A DNA stretch of 64,000 nucleotides from an uncultured Planctomycetales bacterium (GTDB lineage: Bacteria > Planctomycetota > UBA1135): NCBI GenBank assembly GCA_964344765.1, contig CAYFOM010000019.1:17879-81878 (forward strand), given 5' to 3'. The notes under the pieces are model-generated. The model ran no database searches. It saw only the letters and a program-made list of their open reading frames with translations, and was not told where the DNA came from. Shown here piece by piece: positions 58,892-64,000 of the stretch. The position numbers and the translations under genes were made by a program. The number at the start of each line of letters is the position of its first letter. Position 1 is the stretch's first letter.

Positions 58892-58978
58892 CGGGCGGTG
58901 AATTAAGTCATTTCGTCTTCGGCTGGGATGGCATGGCGGCCCTACAATACGCCGTCATTCCCCAGCAAGGAGACTGCT

Positions 58979-59728
58979 GTGAAGATCAGTGTTTGCGTAA
59001 AACGCGTCCCGGCCACGACCACCCGCGTTGTCGTCGGCGACAATAATCGGATCGACCCGAACGGGGTCGAGTTTGTCCTCAACCCCTACGATGAGTTTGC
59101 CGTCGAGCAGGCTCTGCAAGTCAAAGAAGCCGGCGAAGGCACCGTATCCGCTTTCTGTTTCGGCACCAGTGATTCGCAGAAAGAACTGCGCACGGTGCTG
59201 GCCAAAGGCGCCGACGACGTCACGCTGCTACAAAACGACGACGCGCCGCACGCCGATGGCGCCACCACCGCCAAGGTGTTGGCCGACGCGATGCGCGATG
59301 GTGGTTACGACTTGATTTTCTTCGGTAAGCAAGCCGTCGACCGCGACCAGCATGGCGTCGGTCCGGCTGTTGCGACGATGCTTGGTATTCCGTGCATTAC
59401 CGAAGCGATTTCGTTTGAGCTGCAAGGCGACAAGGTCGTGTGCGAGCGCGAAGTGGAAGGTGGTCGCGAGACCGTCGAAGCTCCGCTGCCGTGTGCTGTC
59501 ACTTGCATGAAGGGTTTGAATGAACCGCGCATTGCCAGCTTGAAGGGCATTATGGCCGCCAAGCGCAAGCCGCTGGAAACCGTCGACGTTGCGCTGGATG
59601 GTGCTGCTGTTGAGGTGGTGGAAATGACCATGCCGCCGGAACGTCCGGCCGGTCGCATAGTCGGCGAAGGCGCCGCTGCCGTTCCTGAGTTGGTCGCTGC
59701 GCTGCGCGACGAAGCCAAAGTCCTCTAG
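58979..59728 (+). CDS. etfB: Electron transfer flavoprotein beta subunit
   Basis: GTG 58979 is preceded by AAGGAG (58967-58972). VKISVCVKRVPATTT...LNPYDEFAVEQAL. Confidence 0.9.
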   Translation: MKISVCVKRVPATTTRVVVGDNNRIDPNGVEFVLNPYDEFAVEQALQVKEAGEGTVSAFCFGTSDSQKELRTVLAKGADDVTLLQNDDAPHADGATTAKVLADAMRDGGYDLIFFGKQAVDRDQHGVGPAVATMLGIPCITEAISFELQGDKVVCEREVEGGRETVEAPLPCAVTCMKGLNEPRIASLKGIMAAKRKPLETVDVALDGAAVEVVEMTMPPERPAGRIVGEGAAAVPELVAALRDEAKVL

Positions 59729-59741
59729 CCCCTCGCGAATC

Positions 59742-60698
59742 ATGACTGACGTACTTGTAGTTTTGGAAACCCGCGACGGCGCGCTGCGCCCCGCTTCGTT
59801 GGAAGCTGTTGGTGCCGGCCGCATGGCTGCCGACGCCAGTGGTGGCGGAACCGTTGTTGCTGTTGCCACCGAAAACGCTGACGTGGATGCTGCCGCTTTG
59901 GGCGCTGCCGGTGCCGACAAGGTGCTGGTCGCCGACGCTGGCGCACACTCGCCGGATGGCGCTGCTGCAACCGCCGTTGCTGCCGCGAAAGAATGCGGCG
60001 CTGGTTTGGTGCTGATGGCTGCCACCGTTCGCGGCCGCGACATGCTGGCTCGCGTGGCTGCTGGTTTGGAAACTGGCTTCGCTGCCGACTGCACCGGAAT
60101 GGAATTCGCCGATGGCGGTTTTGTGTTCACCCGTCCGGTTTACGCCGGCAAGGCGATCACCAAGGTCAAGGTCAATGGCGCTGTTGCCTGTGCTTCGATC
60201 CGCGGCAATCACTTCCCGCTAGCGGGTCGTGACGGCGCTGCTGAAATGGGCACCATTGGTGCTGCCGAAGGCAAAGGTGCTGTTACTGGTATCTCGTCGA
60301 AGACCGGGGGTCGTCCCGACGTCGCCGAAGCCTCGCGCGTGGTCGCCGGCGGTCGCGGCATGGGCGCTGAAGACAACTGGAACATGATCGAAGCCGTCGC
60401 CGACGCTCTTCCGGGTGCGGCATTGGGTGCTTCGCGTGCCGTCGTCGATAACGGCTGGCGTCCGCACAGCGAGCAAGTCGGTCAAACCGGCAAGGTGGTT
60501 TCGCCTGAGCTGTACATCGCTGCCGGTATCTCCGGTGCGATTCAGCACTTGGCCGGTATGAACTCGTCGAAGGTGATTGTTGCTGTCAACAAAGACGCTG
60601 ATGCGCCGATCTTCCAGCATGCTTCCTACGGCATCGTTGGCGATGTGAACGAGGTGCTGCCGGTGTTGGCTGAGGAGTTGGCAAAGGTTACCGGCTAA
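59742..60698 (+). CDS. etfA: Electron transfer flavoprotein alpha subunit
   Basis: [19 protein letters not shown] is the ETF-alpha FAD-binding signature. 318 aa. Confidence 0.9.
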   Translation: MTDVLVVLETRDGALRPASLEAVGAGRMAADASGGGTVVAVATENADVDAAALGAAGADKVLVADAGAHSPDGAAATAVAAAKECGAGLVLMAATVRGRDMLARVAAGLETGFAADCTGMEFADGGFVFTRPVYAGKAITKVKVNGAVACASIRGNHFPLAGRDGAAEMGTIGAAEGKGAVTGISSKTGGRPDVAEASRVVAGGRGMGAEDNWNMIEAVADALPGAALGASRAVVDNGWRPHSEQVGQTGKVVSPELYIAAGISGAIQHLAGMNSSKVIVAVNKDADAPIFQHASYGIVGDVNEVLPVLAEELAKVTG

Positions 60699-60750
60699 AG
60701 GCATCGCCCAAACAAGACGGCGGATGGATTCCAGAGATCCATCCGCCGTA
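60534..60750 (+). repeat. Direct repeat copy A: last ~54 codons of intact etfA plus its terminator core
   Basis: 60537-60698 aligns codon for codon with 62600-62761. Over 53 codons plus TAA I count 11 mismatches, all synonymous third-position changes. The hairpin core GGCGGATGGAT is also shared. Confidence 0.85.
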
Positions 60751-60760
60751 AGTTTGTCTT
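60717..60760 (+). terminator. Terminator-like hairpin after etfA
   Basis: ACGGCGGATGGAT (60717-60729) pairs with ATCCATCCGCCGT (60737-60749). The tail AAGTTTGTCTT is only moderately T-rich. Confidence 0.5.
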
Positions 60761-60808
60761 AGCTGTACGGGCAAATTGCTATTAACTTTCCTGAATCAGA
60801 TCACCAAG

Positions 60809-62326
60809 TTATCTGATTGAAATAAAATCAATGGTTCCATTCATGCCGATATCTCCAAACCGAAGTTCAGTGGTGTTAGGTGGAGTGGCAACGTGAAAAT
60901 CAACTGTGAAGCGGTCTCGCTCAGACGCAACATACCAAACCATTGGCGAGCCCGAGACTGCATCGATTCCGTTAAATGTTGAAAGGGTTTCGCATTCCAA
61001 TAACCCAGGATAATCAATGGCGGAAGCAAGAACCGTACATGTATCTGTAACGTGATTACAAAGCATCAAATCACCGTCAGTCTTGTCCAAGAAGACTACA
61101 TAGGATGGCCATTCCACTGATGAAAGTAGCGATATTGCAGCCCCAAATCCCGTTCCCTTGTACTCGGTTGTTATTGCCCAACTCGCATTTCCGCCTGCCA
61201 TGTCGAGCTTAATTTGGAGCAACCAGCCTTCAAAGCTTGTAACGTCGTACCCTGCGACCGCCAATACGCCAGTTGGGAACATCATGGGCAAGGACAAATC
61301 GGTCAACTGGAACCCGGGCAACTCAACTTCAAAGTCTAGCTCTTCAACAATCTCTTGTCCTCCATACATGAATTCAAACTCAATTCTATTCTCCGACGGA
61401 ATCGACCGAATCCTTCCCTCACGACCGATTCCAGGGTAAAAGGCTGGAGATGTAAAGTCAGGGAAAATACTTGGACTAATTGGGTTGCAGGGTCCCTCTA
61501 CTGTTCCGCAGGGGCCACAAGCAGGCTTGGTCCCCTCAGGGCACCGCTTACACCAGTTGCTTGTTGCATATTTGATCAAATGACAGGCTAGCTCTTGAAC
61601 CGTGGTTCCTTGATTGTCGATTTCTAACGAAGGATCGCAAGCTGCAAGCGCACAGAGCCATTCGATTTGGGCGGCATAAGCTCCGCTCTCGACTTCGCAG
61701 ACACTTGAAATACCTGGAGGAGACGAGGGAGGATTCAATGCATGGTGCATTTCATGAATCAGGGTGGAGGCTACATTGATCATCCCCTCAACACCCAACC
61801 CGATCTGGGAATTTAACCACGCACCATTTAGCTGCGTTCCGCTGCCAATCCTCATATTTGTGCATGTGTTACCATTTGAATCAGTAAACTGCCACATTTG
61901 AGTGCCGTCGGATGTTCTGGCGAAGCCTATATGCCGTCCACCATTTTCACGGTCCCTGAGATTTCCTTGAGTTTCCGTACAAAGCTTGGACTTCCAAGCG
62001 TCCAAGAGTTCACTCGCGGTCCTAGTCTCGGATGGTTCTTGTGATTCAGGCTCCCCTGGAAGTGATCCATCAAACCTGGGCAAATCCGGACATTGCTGCT
62101 CAAGGTTGGCCAAAAGCGCTGCTACATCGTCGATAAAATTACTCTGTGCCTGGGTAAGGCCGGTCCCAGTGGAAATGTATCGCGTGGCGATCTCCTCGGA
62201 GGATGTTCCGTCAGTCACAACCTCCGAATGCATAAAGCAATTCCCAGAGAGGGCTGCTGGCGAAGGCGCTATCGGAATCGATAAGGCACCTGCACAAATG
62301 AGGGCACTTATTCCAATGAAGGTCAT
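60809..62326 (-). CDS. Secreted HExxH-motif protein (putative zinc metalloprotease), likely horizontally acquired
   Basis: 505 aa. N-terminal signal MTFIGISALICAGALSIPIAPSPAALS. TLIHEMHHAL carries the HExxH, with CEVESGAYAAQ downstream as a possible third ligand Glu. A Cys-rich segment CKRCPEGTKPACGPCGTVEGPC is present. The protease call is motif level only. Confidence 0.55.
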   Translation of the reverse strand: MTFIGISALICAGALSIPIAPSPAALSGNCFMHSEVVTDGTSSEEIATRYISTGTGLTQAQSNFIDDVAALLANLEQQCPDLPRFDGSLPGEPESQEPSETRTASELLDAWKSKLCTETQGNLRDRENGGRHIGFARTSDGTQMWQFTDSNGNTCTNMRIGSGTQLNGAWLNSQIGLGVEGMINVASTLIHEMHHALNPPSSPPGISSVCEVESGAYAAQIEWLCALAACDPSLEIDNQGTTVQELACHLIKYATSNWCKRCPEGTKPACGPCGTVEGPCNPISPSIFPDFTSPAFYPGIGREGRIRSIPSENRIEFEFMYGGQEIVEELDFEVELPGFQLTDLSLPMMFPTGVLAVAGYDVTSFEGWLLQIKLDMAGGNASWAITTEYKGTGFGAAISLLSSVEWPSYVVFLDKTDGDLMLCNHVTDTCTVLASAIDYPGLLECETLSTFNGIDAVSGSPMVWYVASERDRFTVDFHVATPPNTTELRFGDIGMNGTIDFISIR

Positions 62327-62347
62327 TTCAGCTTTCAGCTTTCAGCT
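62327..62347 (-). repeat. 3 x 7-bp tandem repeat (AAGCTGA on the coding strand) abutting the start codon of the HExxH gene
   Basis: The plus strand reads ttcagct ttcagct ttcagct directly after CAT (62324-62326). Confidence 0.8.
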
Positions 62348-62596
62348 TATGGCTTAGTGTCATAGTCTACTCTGATAATCCAATATTTTTGGGTTAATCA
62401 AGCCCTATTTTGCTGATTCCTCTCGCGATTTTCAGGGTTTCCATGAGCATCATTCACTGCATCCCAAACAAGGATTGAAGGTGGCGGGCGCCGCATTGAG
62501 TTTTGGCAGGAGCTAAAGGAATTGCACCGGCCATACGGTTTGATTGTGCTTTCCCCGTACACCTTAAAGCTTGGATGGGAGCTTGCTAGACTCCCG

Positions 62597-62761
62597 GGTG
62601 CGATTCAGCATTTGGCGGGTATGAACTCGTCGAAGGTGATTGTTGCAGTCAACAAAGACGCTGACGCGCCGATCTTCCAGCATGCTTCCTACGGCATCGT
62701 TGGCGATGTGAACGAGGTTCTGCCGGTGTTGGCGGAAGAGTTGGCTAAGGTGACGGGATAA
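62597..62761 (+). pseudogene. Displaced etfA 3' fragment (direct repeat copy B)
   Basis: It encodes [54 protein letters not shown], identical in protein to the etfA C-terminus. Upstream sequence is unrelated to etfA. Track ORF 62522..62761 fuses it to a non-homologous leader. Confidence 0.8.
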
Positions 62762-62775
62762 ACTATCCCTTCATC

Positions 62776-62822
62776 GAACAGGGCGGATGGATCGCAAGAT
62801 CCAACCGCCCTGTTCTTTTTCC
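62776..62822. terminator. Strong bidirectional terminator (probably the original etfA terminator)
   Basis: GAACAGGGCGGATGGATC-GCAA-GATCCAACCGCCCTGTTC is an 18-bp stem with one mismatch, followed by T5. It sits between the etfA fragment and the convergent FG-GAP gene. Confidence 0.75.
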
Positions 62823-62830
62823 GTCCTAGT

Positions 62831-64000
62831 CTAGGGGACGAATTCCAATCGCAATACGGCGGAGCTATACCTCGGCATACCGCCTTGTGGAAATGCCACG
62901 GCTGCAAGGTAGCAAGTGGTTCCGATGGCACTGGAGTAAAACCCTGTGGGCGCACCGAAGGAAGCCGTGGCCTTGGCGTTTAAATCCAATACTCCATGCA
63001 TATCGGTGGAGTGGGTAGCAGCGTAAAGGCCGCGGATACTGCGATGAGTTTGGCGGTCCCAGGTCAATGGAATCTTCACCCCCATTTCAAAAGGACCTAT
63101 GCCAGTACTGGAAACCAATACCCGGTATGAGTAATGCGCGGCTTCTTCTGGGAAGGAAAGGTATAACTCTACATTCGATGCTGCCATTGCCGGAATCTGT
63201 TGTTGAGACGAAGTCAGGTATGGCAGGTAATCAAGCAGCACAACAGTTCCCGCAGCGTGATCTCCACCGACCTCGGCATAGTAGGAAGCGGCCAACAGTT
63301 CAGCTCGACCATCACCATCAATATCACCTGCAGATGCCACTGCATTGCCAAAATAACCATGCTCCTTAGTGCCGGAGAAGGTGTGCAAGAGCGATCCATT
63401 GGCACCTGAATAAATGCGAACCTCTCCGGATTCAGCAATCCCATTTGCATTGGCATGGTCTGCGCCGATAAGTAAGTCTACAACTCCATCGCGATCCACA
63501 TCGCCGGCAGGGGCAACGGAACTGCCTAGCATCATGTAATACGCTTCACCTTCGAAGCGATAAATCAAGTCGCCAGTGGCGCCAGAATAAACTTCGGCGG
63601 CACCGCAATATTGCTTGTTGCCCACCGTTGCGTTGCGACCTCCCACGATGAAGTCGGCATAGCCATCTTGGTCGATATCACCCACCCCAGAAACATCTTC
63701 GCCACATTTTTTGAAAGCTAAACTGCCGATAACTTGATGGAGCAATGTCCCATCTAAACCGGAAAGTACGAACGCGGCCCCATCTTGCCCAGTGCCCATA
63801 CCTCCCTGACCAAAAAAGGTCGACCCAATGATGATGTCGTCAAAACCATCTTGATTGACGTCGCCAAGTCCAGCGACGGAGTCACCGAAATAATCGATTT
63901 CGTCACCTCCAAAATCGAAGGTCCGATGAACGCGTATCAGTGTGCCATCGGCACCGGAATAAAGATAGGCGCCTCCCCCACTGGTGGAAATTCCAAAGCC
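62831..64000 (-). CDS. FG-GAP (integrin-alpha/VCBS-like) repeat protein, partial (5' end beyond the window)
   Basis: Repeats GDIDQDGYADFIVGG, GDVDRDGVVDLLIGA and GDIDGDGRAELLAAS. My translation upstream of the track start (63799) stays open to 64000 (...GDVNQDGFDDIIIGSTFFGQGG-MGTGQDG...). Confidence 0.75.
   Translation of the reverse strand, partial: GFGISTSGGGAYLYSGADGTLIRVHRTFDFGGDEIDYFGDSVAGLGDVNQDGFDDIIIGSTFFGQGGMGTGQDGAAFVLSGLDGTLLHQVIGSLAFKKCGEDVSGVGDIDQDGYADFIVGGRNATVGNKQYCGAAEVYSGATGDLIYRFEGEAYYMMLGSSVAPAGDVDRDGVVDLLIGADHANANGIAESGEVRIYSGANGSLLHTFSGTKEHGYFGNAVASAGDIDGDGRAELLAASYYAEVGGDHAAGTVVLLDYLPYLTSSQQQIPAMAASNVELYLSFPEEAAHYSYRVLVSSTGIGPFEMGVKIPLTWDRQTHRSIRGLYAATHSTDMHGVLDLNAKATASFGAPTGFYSSAIGTTCYLAAVAFPQGGMPRYSSAVLRLEFVP

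What the first reader, a model, noticed from the sequence alone, without database searches (positions are those of the whole stretch)
60534..62822. Low-G+C insertion carrying an HExxH protein, flanked by two etfA 3' ends that differ only at synonymous sites
The last ~54 codons of etfA plus the terminator core occur twice in direct orientation, at 60534-60750 and 62597-62816. Over the 53 aligned codons plus stop I count 11 nucleotide differences. All are third-position and synonymous, so the two encoded peptides are identical. A copy decaying in place as non-coding DNA should collect changes at all codon positions. The pattern therefore implies that both copies evolved as parts of functional etfA genes in different lineages and were brought together by recombination or integration. 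This is the situation seen when an element targets the 3' end of a gene and carries its own replacement end. Between the repeats lie ~1.85 kb of visibly lower G+C with a single opposite-strand gene. That gene encodes a 505-aa secreted Cys-rich protein with TLIHEMHHAL (HExxH). No integrase or transposase is present. So this is either a decayed integrative element, or a cassette captured by homology-facilitated illegitimate recombination using etfA as the anchor. Copy B retains the better terminator (18-bp stem plus T5), which suggests it is the original chromosomal end.
Basis: partly seen in the sequence, partly recalled or inferred. Interest (0 to 1): 0.65.

Follow-up and report, generated by a model that had tools for sequence, protein, structure and literature searches.

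The report
Recombination scar duplicating the etfA end
The last 54 codons of etfA occur twice because two versions of a highly variable neighbourhood, from two related bacteria, were joined end to end by an irregular recombination event; this is a clear but ordinary trace of gene exchange, not a new kind of mobile element.

Summary
Windows 60534-60698 and 62597-62761 are direct copies of the last 54 etfA codons plus stop. They differ at 11 sites, all third-position and synonymous (P about 1e-7 to 1e-6 if one copy had drifted; dS 0.35, dN 0).

The decisive new fact is the joint. Directly 5' of copy B lies a 15-nt motif (62579-62593). Elsewhere it occurs only 8 nt upstream of the start codon of the S9/DPP-IV peptidase gene that follows etfA in related Planctomycetota. 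The 1.85-kb insert is therefore a second allele of the etfA-to-S9 interval: etfA end, hairpin, HExxH gene, S9 leader. It is fused illegitimately to etfA codon 265 of another allele, which carries the FG-GAP gene.

That interval is a low-G+C variable spot across the clade. It is empty, or holds FG-GAP(+), FG-GAP(+/-) or an HsdR fragment. I found no integrase, no recurrence of the duplication in 179 loci, and no empty site. Low G+C continues past copy B.

The best explanation is one homologous plus one illegitimate crossover between two haplotypes (HFIR, or Campbell-type integration of a circle). Which side was resident is unresolved. The HExxH protein belongs to a very rare, unnamed family. A 7-nt repeat at its start varies between samples.

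The parts
59742..60698 (+). etfA (318 aa), the intact gene; preceded by etfB at 58928-59728
   Evidence: Pfam ETF and ETF_alpha match at E 1e-33. Orthologues with 83-94% aa identity occur in Planctomycetota MAGs with the same upstream synteny.
60534..60698 (+). Copy A: the last 54 codons plus stop of the functional etfA
   Evidence: Codon comparison. Repeat family D1.
60717..60749 (+). Hairpin A: 14-bp stem ACGGCGGATGGAT..ATCCATCCGCCGT with a poor T tail. It lies between the convergent etfA and HExxH genes. Homology to relative L001 ends here.
   Evidence: -31.8 kcal/mol, z -5.6.
60809..62326 (-). Cargo gene of 505 aa (515 aa in the 2-repeat variant). It has a signal-peptide-like N-terminus, an HExxHxxNP...E motif, a Cys-rich linker and a C-terminal beta-propeller-like domain. 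It belongs to a rare, unnamed family.
   Evidence: No Pfam match. Only itself was found among 5.8e9 proteins. Nine hits among 1.84e9 representatives, the best at 38% identity. Invariant residues H191, H195, N198, P199 and E213. AF2 with 8 sequences gave pLDDT 70.7, and Foldseek found weak propeller hits for about residues 290-505. GC3 is 0.476.
62327..62347 (.). Heptanucleotide repeat TTCAGCT x3, present as x2 in other samples, immediately 5' of the HExxH start codon
   Evidence: It is the only polymorphism in up to 13 kb between samples. Its effect on the frame of the upstream ATG at 62363 is shown.
62573..62593 (+). Remnant of the leader of the S9/DPP-IV peptidase gene: GGATGG followed by GAGCTTGCTAGACTC. 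This is the right-hand end of the imported or second haplotype.
   Evidence: The motif matches GAGCTTGTTAGACTC at 14 of 15 positions. In relatives that sequence lies 8 nt before the S9 ATG (0 of 300 shuffles). It occurs once in the window, against 0.06 expected at <=2 mismatches. In 2.3 Mb of loci it is found only at S9 leaders and at this joint.
62594..62596 (+). Illegitimate joint: three nucleotides (CCG) that can be assigned to neither parent, between the S9 leader remnant and etfA codon 265
   Evidence: Direct reading. Homology to etfA starts exactly at 62597.
62597..62761 (+). Copy B: a detached etfA 3' end of 54 codons plus stop from a second allele. It lies inside a 79-aa ORF (62522-62761) that gene callers report.
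   Evidence: The ORF has no Pfam match. A and B are each other's nearest relatives: 11 differences, against 22-33 to other lineages.
62776..62815 (+). Hairpin B: 18-nt arms with one mismatch, followed by TTCTTTTTCC
   Evidence: I4; -33.6 kcal/mol, z -7.2.
62831..64000 (-). 3' part of the FG-GAP repeat gene (572 aa in full; it runs off the window). This is the cargo of the second haplotype and is low in G+C. Its positional orthologue lies next to S9 in a relative.
   Evidence: Pfam FG-GAP. Full length seen in L081/L084. P0103 is 69% identical, 573 aa, on the minus strand directly upstream of S9 in the P0090 contig. It is only 37% identical to the FG-GAP(+) of L170.

Best explanation
**Setting.** The region is a recombination scar at a hypervariable spot. 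In this clade of uncultured Planctomycetota, etfA is followed by an S9/DPP-IV peptidase gene. The interval between them holds different low-G+C cargo genes in different lineages.

**The two haplotypes.** Two haplotypes of that interval, from two related bacteria (synonymous divergence about 0.35), have been joined in tandem.
- Haplotype X: etfA end, hairpin, HExxH gene, S9 leader.
- Haplotype Y: etfA end, hairpin, FG-GAP gene, IS256-type element, and onward.

**The event.** One crossover was homologous. The other was illegitimate and fused the S9 leader of X (ending ...TAGACTC) through three unassigned bases to codon 265 of the etfA of Y. Three routes give this structure:
- A linear fragment taken up and integrated by homology-facilitated illegitimate recombination, with its anchor in etfA or upstream.
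- The mirror event, with the anchor in S9.
- A circular by-product carrying the joint that integrated by a single crossover within the etfA end.

**What follows from this.**
- Each etfA end had spent its history inside a working gene, so the differences are all synonymous.
- The detached copy B is a very young pseudogene fragment.
- No dedicated recombinase is needed.

**Shown:** the repeat, the synonymous-only pattern, the leader remnant at the joint, the variability and low G+C of the locus in relatives, and the absence of an integrase.

**Inferred:** the two-haplotype origin, the type of recombination, and the recency.

**Not resolved:** which haplotype was resident.
For: 1. All 11 differences are synonymous (P 1.6e-7 to 1.5e-6). 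dS is 0.354 and dN is 0. etfA in this clade has dN/dS of about 0.03, so roughly one non-synonymous change would be expected between two functional alleles, against about 20 if copy B had drifted.
2. A and B are each other's nearest relatives: 11 differences, against 20-33 to L001, L167, L170, L166 and L002. This points to two sister lineages, about half as diverged as the nearest sampled genomes (dS 0.62-0.74).
3. The S9-leader motif sits 3 nt from copy B. It is unique in the window, and elsewhere it occurs only 8 nt upstream of S9 start codons.
4. The locus varies between lineages:
   - etfA directly followed by S9 in L167-169, L002 and L166;
   - FG-GAP(+) between them in L170-173;
   - FG-GAP(+) and FG-GAP(-) in the P0090 contig;
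   - an HsdR C-terminal fragment in L001/L175.
5. All cargo genes at this spot have 49-52% G+C, against 58-63% in the flanks.
6. The FG-GAP(-) gene has a positional orthologue (69% identity) next to S9 in a relative, so Y is a genuine haplotype of this locus.
7. There is no integrase, transposase, tRNA or Rfam element within 60300-63000, and the upstream genes are housekeeping.
8. There are precedents:
   - HFIR is proposed for arrays of displaced gene ends and orphan modules (PMC5361080).
   - Single crossover of a circle carrying a gene-end fragment gives 109-950-bp duplications of that end in E. coli (PMC3240628).
Against: - No parental haplotype has been found, neither X alone (etfA-HExxH-S9) nor Y alone. 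The HExxH gene has no homologue in any relative of this clade.
- The S9 gene itself was not found in the window. All contigs stop in an IS256-type transposase, so I could not see whether Y ends in S9.
- The leader remnant is short: 15 nt plus GGATGG.
- The joint shows no clear microhomology and has 3 unassigned bases.
- Natural competence or any other uptake route is unknown for this organism.
- The differences are unevenly spread (4, then a 53-nt identical block, then 7). At the variable sites, L001 matches A in the 5' part and B in the 3' part. This hints at a crossover inside the repeat rather than upstream, but with 8 informative sites it is not decisive.
Confidence: 0.65

Rival explanations
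1. A decayed site-specific integrative element (e14/phage-21 type) that uses the etfA 3' end as its attachment site and brings a replacement end. Its integrase has been lost.
For: - The element is flanked by a direct repeat of a gene 3' end that differs only at synonymous sites. This is the pattern known for icd/icdC around e14 (PMC13626634).
- A 53-nt identical block could serve as a core.
- The cargo is low in G+C.
- An IS256-type transposase lies 2.2 kb away.
Against: - No integrase or other recombinase lies between the repeats or nearby.
- The element-side flank of copy B is the leader of the neighbouring chromosomal S9 gene, which an attP would not carry.
- Among 179 loci holding an etfA end, including about 15 close relatives with 1-10 kb downstream, only this population's own contigs have a second truncated copy.
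- The only provirus-like contig I tested with phage genes next to etfA has no second etfA end.
- The insert has no match in phage or plasmid collections.
Confidence: 0.08
2. An in-place tandem duplication of the segment from etfA codon 265 to the S9 leader, by unequal sister-chromatid exchange. One unit's cargo was later replaced, and the functional etfA was swapped for a diverged allele by homologous recombination.
For: - The novel joint S9-leader|codon 265 is exactly what a tandem duplication of that segment would create.
- The locus is evidently prone to cargo replacement.
Against: - It needs at least three events: duplication, cargo replacement, and allelic replacement confined to one copy. 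The two-haplotype explanation needs one.
- The two units share nothing beyond the etfA end and the hairpin core.
- The spacers between stop codon and hairpin differ by several indels, as between lineages, not as between recent duplicates.
Confidence: 0.15
3. Copy B is kept by selection because the 79-aa ORF (62522-62761) is translated into a functional small protein made of the EtfA C-terminus.
For: - The ORF is open and was called as a gene in every assembly.
- An AGGAG lies 9 nt before its TTG start (direct reading).
- There are no non-synonymous changes.
Against: - No such fragment gene exists in any other of the 179 loci.
- The ORF has no Pfam match, and its first 25 residues are junction sequence.
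- No promoter-like site was found in 60400-63000.
- The pattern is fully explained by divergence before the event plus a recent origin. The contigs from the different samples are identical over up to 13 kb apart from one repeat unit.
Confidence: 0.03
4. An assembly chimera that joins two co-occurring strains through the shared etfA sequence.
For: - The data are metagenome assemblies.
- Logan contigs break exactly at the 53-nt identical block.
Against: - The longest identical stretch is 53 nt, far below k = 127.
- The X|B joint has no shared sequence at all, so a de Bruijn mis-join cannot create it.
- A Logan contig (L083) crosses that joint.
- The same structure was assembled from at least five samples with no SNPs.
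Confidence: 0.03

Closest known systems
Homology-facilitated illegitimate recombination (de Vries & Wackernagel 2002; Prudhomme et al. 2002; Meier & Wackernagel 2003, as cited in PMC5361080), and its proposed products: arrays of orphan Rhs/CDI/T6SS modules
   Same: - One end of the incoming DNA recombines in a conserved gene and the other joins illegitimately.
- New cargo is added, and the older module, with a fragment of the conserved gene, is pushed downstream.
- No dedicated recombinase is involved.
   Different: - The conserved anchor here is a housekeeping metabolic gene (etfA) or its neighbour S9, not a toxin gene.
- There is only one displaced unit.
- The joint lies in a 5' leader.
- The event was not observed experimentally, and the organism's competence is unknown.
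Campbell-type single crossover of a circular molecule carrying a gene-end fragment, as in the E. coli lacZ-end duplications of 109-950 bp (PMC3240628)
   Same: - It produces a direct duplication of the 3' part of a gene flanking the inserted DNA.
- The duplication is of similar size (165-215 bp here).
   Different: - That case involved an engineered plasmid.
- Here the circle would have to arise from a relative's chromosome by an illegitimate S9-leader/etfA joint.
- A crossover inside the repeat is only hinted at.
e14 and phage 21 integration into icd of E. coli, which leaves the icdC 3' pseudogene fragment
   Same: - A housekeeping gene keeps a complete reading frame.
- A displaced copy of its 3' end sits at the other side of the inserted DNA.
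- The two ends differ mostly at synonymous sites.
   Different: - e14 is about 15 kb, encodes an integrase and excises site-specifically.
- Here the insert is 1.85 kb with one cargo gene and no recombinase.
- The flank of the displaced end is chromosomal leader sequence.
Zincin-type (HExxH) secreted metalloproteases
   Same: - HExxH lies in a predicted helix, with an invariant Glu 18 residues after the second His.
- The N-terminus resembles a signal peptide.
   Different: - There is no match to any Pfam peptidase family or to any solved structure by sequence profile.
- Only about 9 relatives exist among 1.84e9 representatives.
- One member has HG in place of HE.
- Activity is untested.

Membership tests
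Integrative element with an attachment site in a gene 3' end (e14/phage 21-icd type) | Direct repeat of the target gene's 3' end at both borders, with the target reading frame restored | tested here: met
   60534-60698 and 62597-62761 encode identical peptides, and etfA is intact.
Integrative element with an attachment site in a gene 3' end (e14/phage 21-icd type) | A tyrosine or serine recombinase encoded within the element, usually next to an att border | tested here: not met
   Only one ORF over 100 aa is credible between the repeats, and it has no Pfam match. The neighbouring genes are housekeeping or FG-GAP.
Integrative element with an attachment site in a gene 3' end (e14/phage 21-icd type) | DNA on the inner side of both repeats belongs to the element, not to the host locus | tested here: not met
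   The 15 nt adjoining copy B are the leader of the chromosomal S9 peptidase gene of relatives.
Integrative element with an attachment site in a gene 3' end (e14/phage 21-icd type) | The same site is used repeatedly in related genomes, and an empty site exists | tested here: not met
   Among the 179 loci holding an etfA end, no locus outside this population has a second truncated etfA end. No same-species genome without the insert was available, so the empty-site part could not be tested.
Product of homology-facilitated illegitimate recombination, or one-sided homologous insertion | One border lies in sequence homologous but not identical between donor and recipient | tested here: met
   The two etfA ends have dS 0.35 and dN 0, and are each other's nearest relatives.
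Product of homology-facilitated illegitimate recombination, or one-sided homologous insertion | The other border is a novel joint between unrelated sequences, with little or no homology | tested here: met
   The joint reads S9-leader ...TAGACTC / CCG / GGTGCG..., entering etfA at codon 265. Homology to etfA starts abruptly at 62597.
Product of homology-facilitated illegitimate recombination, or one-sided homologous insertion | Heterologous DNA is carried in between | tested here: met
   The HExxH gene has G+C 0.485, 4.8 SD below the window mean, and no homologue in relatives of the clade.
Product of homology-facilitated illegitimate recombination, or one-sided homologous insertion | DNA uptake (natural transformation or another route) and RecA-dependent anchoring in the host | not testable with these tools
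   The organism is an uncultured Planctomycetota population known only from metagenome contigs.
Zincin metallopeptidase | A conserved HExxH with a third metal ligand downstream | tested here: inconclusive
   H191, H195 and E213 are invariant in 8 family members, and E192 is present in 7 of 8. With only 8 sequences, and no structure of the site, the evidence is thin.
Zincin metallopeptidase | A significant match to a known peptidase family profile or fold | tested here: not met
Phase-variable (slipped-strand) contingency gene | A short tandem repeat, not a multiple of three, at the 5' end of the gene, whose copy number varies within a population and changes the reading frame or start | tested here: met
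   TTCAGCT is present as x3 in the window and L084, and x2 in L081, L082 and L083. It is the only difference in up to 13 kb. Two copies put the upstream ATG in frame, giving 515 aa. The effect on expression was not tested, and there are only 2-3 copies.

The most novel reading that the evidence does not exclude
The interval between etfA and the S9 peptidase gene may be a dedicated cassette-exchange site in this planctomycete clade. It would be bounded by two related hairpins: the etfA terminator and the S9 leader share the arm ACGGCGGATGGA. Low-G+C genes for secreted proteins (FG-GAP, HExxH/propeller) and defence fragments would be swapped there by an unrecognised hairpin-directed mechanism. 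On this reading the duplicated etfA end is an aberrant product of that mechanism rather than a one-off accident.
Probability: 0.1. Interest if true: 0.6.

Novelty: new member of a known kind. Interest (0 to 1): 0.35.

Why it matters
- **A natural example of a rare event.** Insertions made by one homologous and one illegitimate crossover are well studied in the laboratory. They are rarely documented in nature with both joints legible. Here the synonymous-only signature and the leader remnant allow the event to be reconstructed in an uncultured marine-type Planctomycetota lineage.
- **A caution for annotators.** A gene-end repeat with synonymous differences is usually read as the footprint of an integrase-borne element. 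This case shows that it need not be one.
- **A variable spot in the clade.** The interval next to etfA exchanges low-G+C genes for secreted proteins, and one of them belongs to a nearly orphan HExxH family with a possible on/off repeat.

None of this changes current understanding of recombination.

Tried and rejected
1. **Contig L083 is exactly 2063 nt, equal to the repeat period.** I considered a circle or a tandem array. It is a coincidence: the contig is the 2070-nt unitig between the 53-nt identical blocks, minus the 7-nt repeat unit.
2. **Deciding which copy is native from shared synonymous states.** L001 matches A at the 5' sites and B at the 3' sites. L170 matches A at the 3' sites, and L167 matches B. 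That leaves 8 informative sites on a near-star phylogeny, which is inconclusive.
3. **Sliding-window identity of the window against L001, L167 and L170 from lptB to the etfA stop, to find a left crossover.** No breakpoint is visible.
4. **Empty-site search.** Exact-protein look-ups of EtfA, the HExxH protein and the FG-GAP protein returned only contigs of one project (PRJEB17505), all with the insert. The GTDB-representative and JGI metagenome scans gave nothing closer than 94% aa identity. DNA of the informative JGI contig carrying P0090 was not retrievable.
6. **Pfam on the 27-aa terminal fragment.** No hit. tblastn against plasmids identified it as an IS256-family transposase.
7. **Do viruses carry etfA ends as attP?** Six IMG/VR contigs have EtfA C-terminal matches. 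Those I inspected are whole host etfA genes next to phage-like genes, or giant-virus fragments. The one contig tested has a single copy.
8. **Other searches that found nothing.** Rfam and tRNA scans of the region. Insert DNA against phage and plasmid collections.

Full report
**1. The observation**

The window carries etfB (58928-59728) and etfA (59742-60698) on the + strand. The last 54 codons and the stop of etfA (60534-60698) recur 2063 nt downstream at 62597-62761 (D1).

A codon-by-codon comparison finds 11 differences, at nt 60548, 60554, 60584, 60602, 60656, 60671, 60674, 60683, 60689, 60692 and 60695. All are at third positions and all are synonymous. There are no indels, so the two peptides are identical.

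- Only 24-30% of random substitutions in this stretch would be synonymous, so 11 of 11 has P = 1.6e-7 to 1.5e-6.
- Nei-Gojobori estimates are dS 0.354 and dN 0.
- Homology to etfA begins abruptly at 62597.
- After the stop codons the spacers align only with indels.
- Both copies end in a strong hairpin that shares the core GGCGGATGGAT: 60717-60749 at -31.8 kcal/mol, and 62776-62815 at -33.6 kcal/mol.

Between the copies lies one credible gene, at 60809-62326 on the - strand. It encodes 505 aa with 17 Cys and the motif LIHEMHHALNP.

The insert has G+C 0.485, against 0.580 +/- 0.020 for equal-sized windows elsewhere (minimum 0.52). GC3 of the gene is 0.476, against 0.60-0.81 for 20 other genes.

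One correction to the finding: the low-G+C tract does not end at copy B. The FG-GAP gene beyond it has G+C 0.52 and GC3 0.488.

**2. It is not an artefact**

The same arrangement occurs in contigs assembled independently from at least five runs of ENA project PRJEB17505, by MEGAHIT (k127) and by Logan. Apart from one repeat unit, the sequences are identical over up to 13-14 kb.

The longest identical stretch between the copies is 53 nt (60603-60655). The joint to the left of copy B has no shared sequence at all. A de Bruijn mis-join therefore cannot explain it, and a Logan contig (L083) crosses that joint. The length of L083 equals the repeat period only by coincidence.

**3. What relatives show**

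The organism is an uncultured member of the Planctomycetota. The nearest genomes have EtfA 94%, 88% and 83% identical, and about 87-89% nucleotide identity from lptB to etfA. The phylogeny of four lineages is nearly a star. The upstream gene order (signal peptidase, lptB, etfB, etfA) is conserved. What follows etfA is not:

| Lineage | What follows etfA |
|---|---|
| L167-L169, L002/L086, L166 | An S9/DPP-IV peptidase gene (+), about 95 nt downstream |
| L170-L173 | An FG-GAP gene (+), then S9 |
| JGI contig carrying P0090 | FG-GAP (+), FG-GAP (-, 573 aa), then S9 |
| L001/L174/L175 | A C-terminal fragment of a type I restriction R subunit (-) |

- The window's FG-GAP gene (572 aa, -) is 69% identical to the minus-strand FG-GAP gene next to S9 in the P0090 contig. 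It is at most 45% identical to everything else, and 37% identical to the plus-strand one of L170. It is therefore a fast-evolving but locus-specific gene.
- Every cargo gene at this spot has 49-52% G+C, against 58-63% for etfA and S9.
- The etfA-S9 interval is thus a variable, compositionally odd spot across the clade.

**4. The joint**

In relatives the S9 gene has a conserved leader...ACGGCGGATGGACGC CCGC GAGCTTGTTAGACTC GCAAA ATG CGTCCCTCCGCCGT. It folds into a hairpin that encloses the start codon (-35.3 kcal/mol, z -6.6).

In the window, the 15 nt at 62579-62593 (GAGCTTGCTAGACTC) match this leader at 14 of 15 positions. They are preceded by GGATGG, as in the leader.

- No shuffle out of 300 reached this score.
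- The motif occurs once in the 64-kb window, with 0.06 expected at up to two mismatches.
- In 2.3 Mb of fetched loci it occurs only 8 nt upstream of S9 start codons and at this joint.

It ends 3 nt (CCG) before etfA codon 265 of copy B. The insert therefore runs from an etfA end to an S9 leader. That makes it a complete second copy of the variable interval with different cargo, fused head-to-tail to another copy by a joint between unrelated sequences.

**5. Explanation**

The simplest reading is that two haplotypes of the interval, from two related lineages, were joined.
- Haplotype X: etfA end, hairpin, HExxH gene (-), S9 leader.
- Haplotype Y: etfA end, hairpin, FG-GAP (-), and onward.

They were joined by one homologous and one illegitimate exchange.

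The two etfA ends are each other's nearest relatives: 11 differences, against 20-33 to any sampled lineage. Their dS of 0.35 compares with 0.62-0.74 between the window and L170 or L167.

With dN/dS of about 0.03 in etfA, roughly one non-synonymous difference is expected between two working alleles, so zero is unremarkable. Had copy B drifted for its half of the divergence, about 20 would be expected. The event must therefore be recent relative to the divergence. From zero changes at 123 non-synonymous sites, I estimate it at less than roughly 7% of that divergence.

Three routes give the same structure:
- Uptake of a linear X fragment, anchored in or upstream of etfA, with the illegitimate joint at recipient codon 265. 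This is HFIR.
- The mirror event, with Y imported and anchored in S9.
- A circle carrying the leader|codon-265 joint that integrated by a single crossover inside the etfA end.

The uneven spread of differences (4, a 53-nt identical block, then 7) faintly favours the third route. So does the fact that L001 shares A's states in the 5' part and B's in the 3' part. With eight informative sites this is not decisive. Which haplotype was resident is not resolved.

Laboratory and comparative precedents exist for both HFIR and single-crossover duplications of a gene end (PMC5361080; PMC3240628).

**6. Rivals**

- **A decayed integrase-borne element of the e14/icd type (PMC13626634).** It would give the same repeat. 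But there is no recombinase. The inner flank of copy B is chromosomal leader sequence. No locus outside this population, among the 179 with an etfA end, has a second truncated copy. The insert matches nothing in phage or plasmid collections.
- **An in-place tandem duplication.** It explains the joint, but needs later cargo replacement plus allelic replacement of one copy.
- **Selection on the 79-aa ORF that contains copy B.** This cannot be excluded but has no support.

**7. The cargo gene**

- The 505-aa protein has no Pfam match.
- It finds only itself among 5.8e9 clustered proteins.
- It has nine hits among 1.84e9 representatives. The best (P0222) is 38% identical over the full length.
- In an alignment of eight members, H191, H195, N198, P199 and E213 are invariant, and E192 is present in seven.
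- A profile search of PDB sequences gives nothing relevant.
- An AlphaFold model built from the 8-sequence alignment (pLDDT 70.7) shows a helical N-terminal half containing the motif and a beta-rich C-terminal half. The latter gives weak Foldseek matches to beta-propellers (E about 3e-4, TM 0.25-0.4).

A secreted zincin-like protease with a propeller domain is a reasonable guess, but it is not established.

P0222 lies in a 67-70% G+C organism. There it sits in a locally low-G+C island with a NotI-type restriction-modification pair, Fic and RadC/DUF2958 genes. This fits a horizontally moving cargo gene.

**8. Side observations**

- **The 7-nt repeat.** The only polymorphism among the samples is the copy number (3 against 2) of the heptanucleotide TTCAGCT at 62327-62347, immediately 5' of the start codon. 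Two copies put an upstream ATG in frame and add MTLSHKLKAE to the N-terminus (515 aa). Three copies make that ATG end in a TGA that overlaps the 505-aa start. This looks like slipped-strand switching.
- **The contig end.** All contigs end about 2.2 kb beyond copy B, inside the C-terminus of an IS256-family transposase. This explains why the assemblies stop there.

**9. Verdict**

The integrative-element reading is not supported. The recombination-capture reading is supported and refined by the leader remnant. This is a new, well-resolved instance of a known kind of event, of modest general interest.

Noticed in passing
window 62327-62347 (and the upstream ATG at 62363, - strand): The heptanucleotide TTCAGCT is present in 3 copies in the window and L084, and in 2 copies in L081, L082 and L083. 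It is the only difference in up to 13 kb between samples. The copy number decides whether an upstream ATG is in frame with the HExxH ORF (515 aa against 505 aa), which suggests slipped-strand phase variation.
   Followed up: partly
L084 14919-15002 (about 2.2 kb beyond window position 62816; outside the window): All contigs of this population end inside the last 27 codons of an IS256-family transposase gene, just upstream of the FG-GAP gene. tblastn hits only IS256-family transposases. A multi-copy IS probably breaks the assemblies and hides what follows.
   Followed up: partly
L167 4288-4343; L170 5010-5066; L002 6535-6590: The S9/DPP-IV peptidase gene of relatives has a conserved leader hairpin that encloses its own start codon (-35.3 kcal/mol, z -6.6). 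Its outer arm ACGGCGGATGGA is the same as the arm of the etfA terminator hairpins in the window (60717, 62779) and in L001. There is no Rfam match. It may be a translational control element, and it may be related to the terminator hairpins.
   Followed up: partly
L170 3284-4951; L175 6683-7762; window 60809-62326 and 62831-64000: Every gene found between etfA and S9 in this clade has 49-52% G+C, against 58-63% in the flanking genes. This holds whatever the gene is: FG-GAP in either orientation, the HExxH gene, or a truncated type I restriction R subunit.
   Followed up: partly
L180 10001-11689 (also L181, L182): The nearest homologue of the HExxH protein (P0222, 38% identity) is recorded in 65 blocks of the contig collection (24 contigs read), in a 67-70% G+C organism. 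It sits in a locally low-G+C island with a DNA methylase/NotI pair, Fic, RadC/DUF2958 and HTH genes.
   Followed up: no
L183 2-145 and L188 5001-5108 (IMG/VR giant-virus MAG contigs, 29-31% G+C): These contigs hold short stretches that encode EtfA C-terminus-like peptides (67-69% identity over 36-48 aa). L183's stretch lies at the contig start and L188's inside the contig.
   Followed up: no
L175 6683-7762 and L001 11139-11969: In the lineage nearest to the window, etfA is followed by a 359-aa ORF that corresponds only to the C-terminal domain of a type I restriction R subunit (Pfam T1RH-like_C, E 3e-76). It is either a remnant or a stand-alone domain gene.
   Followed up: no
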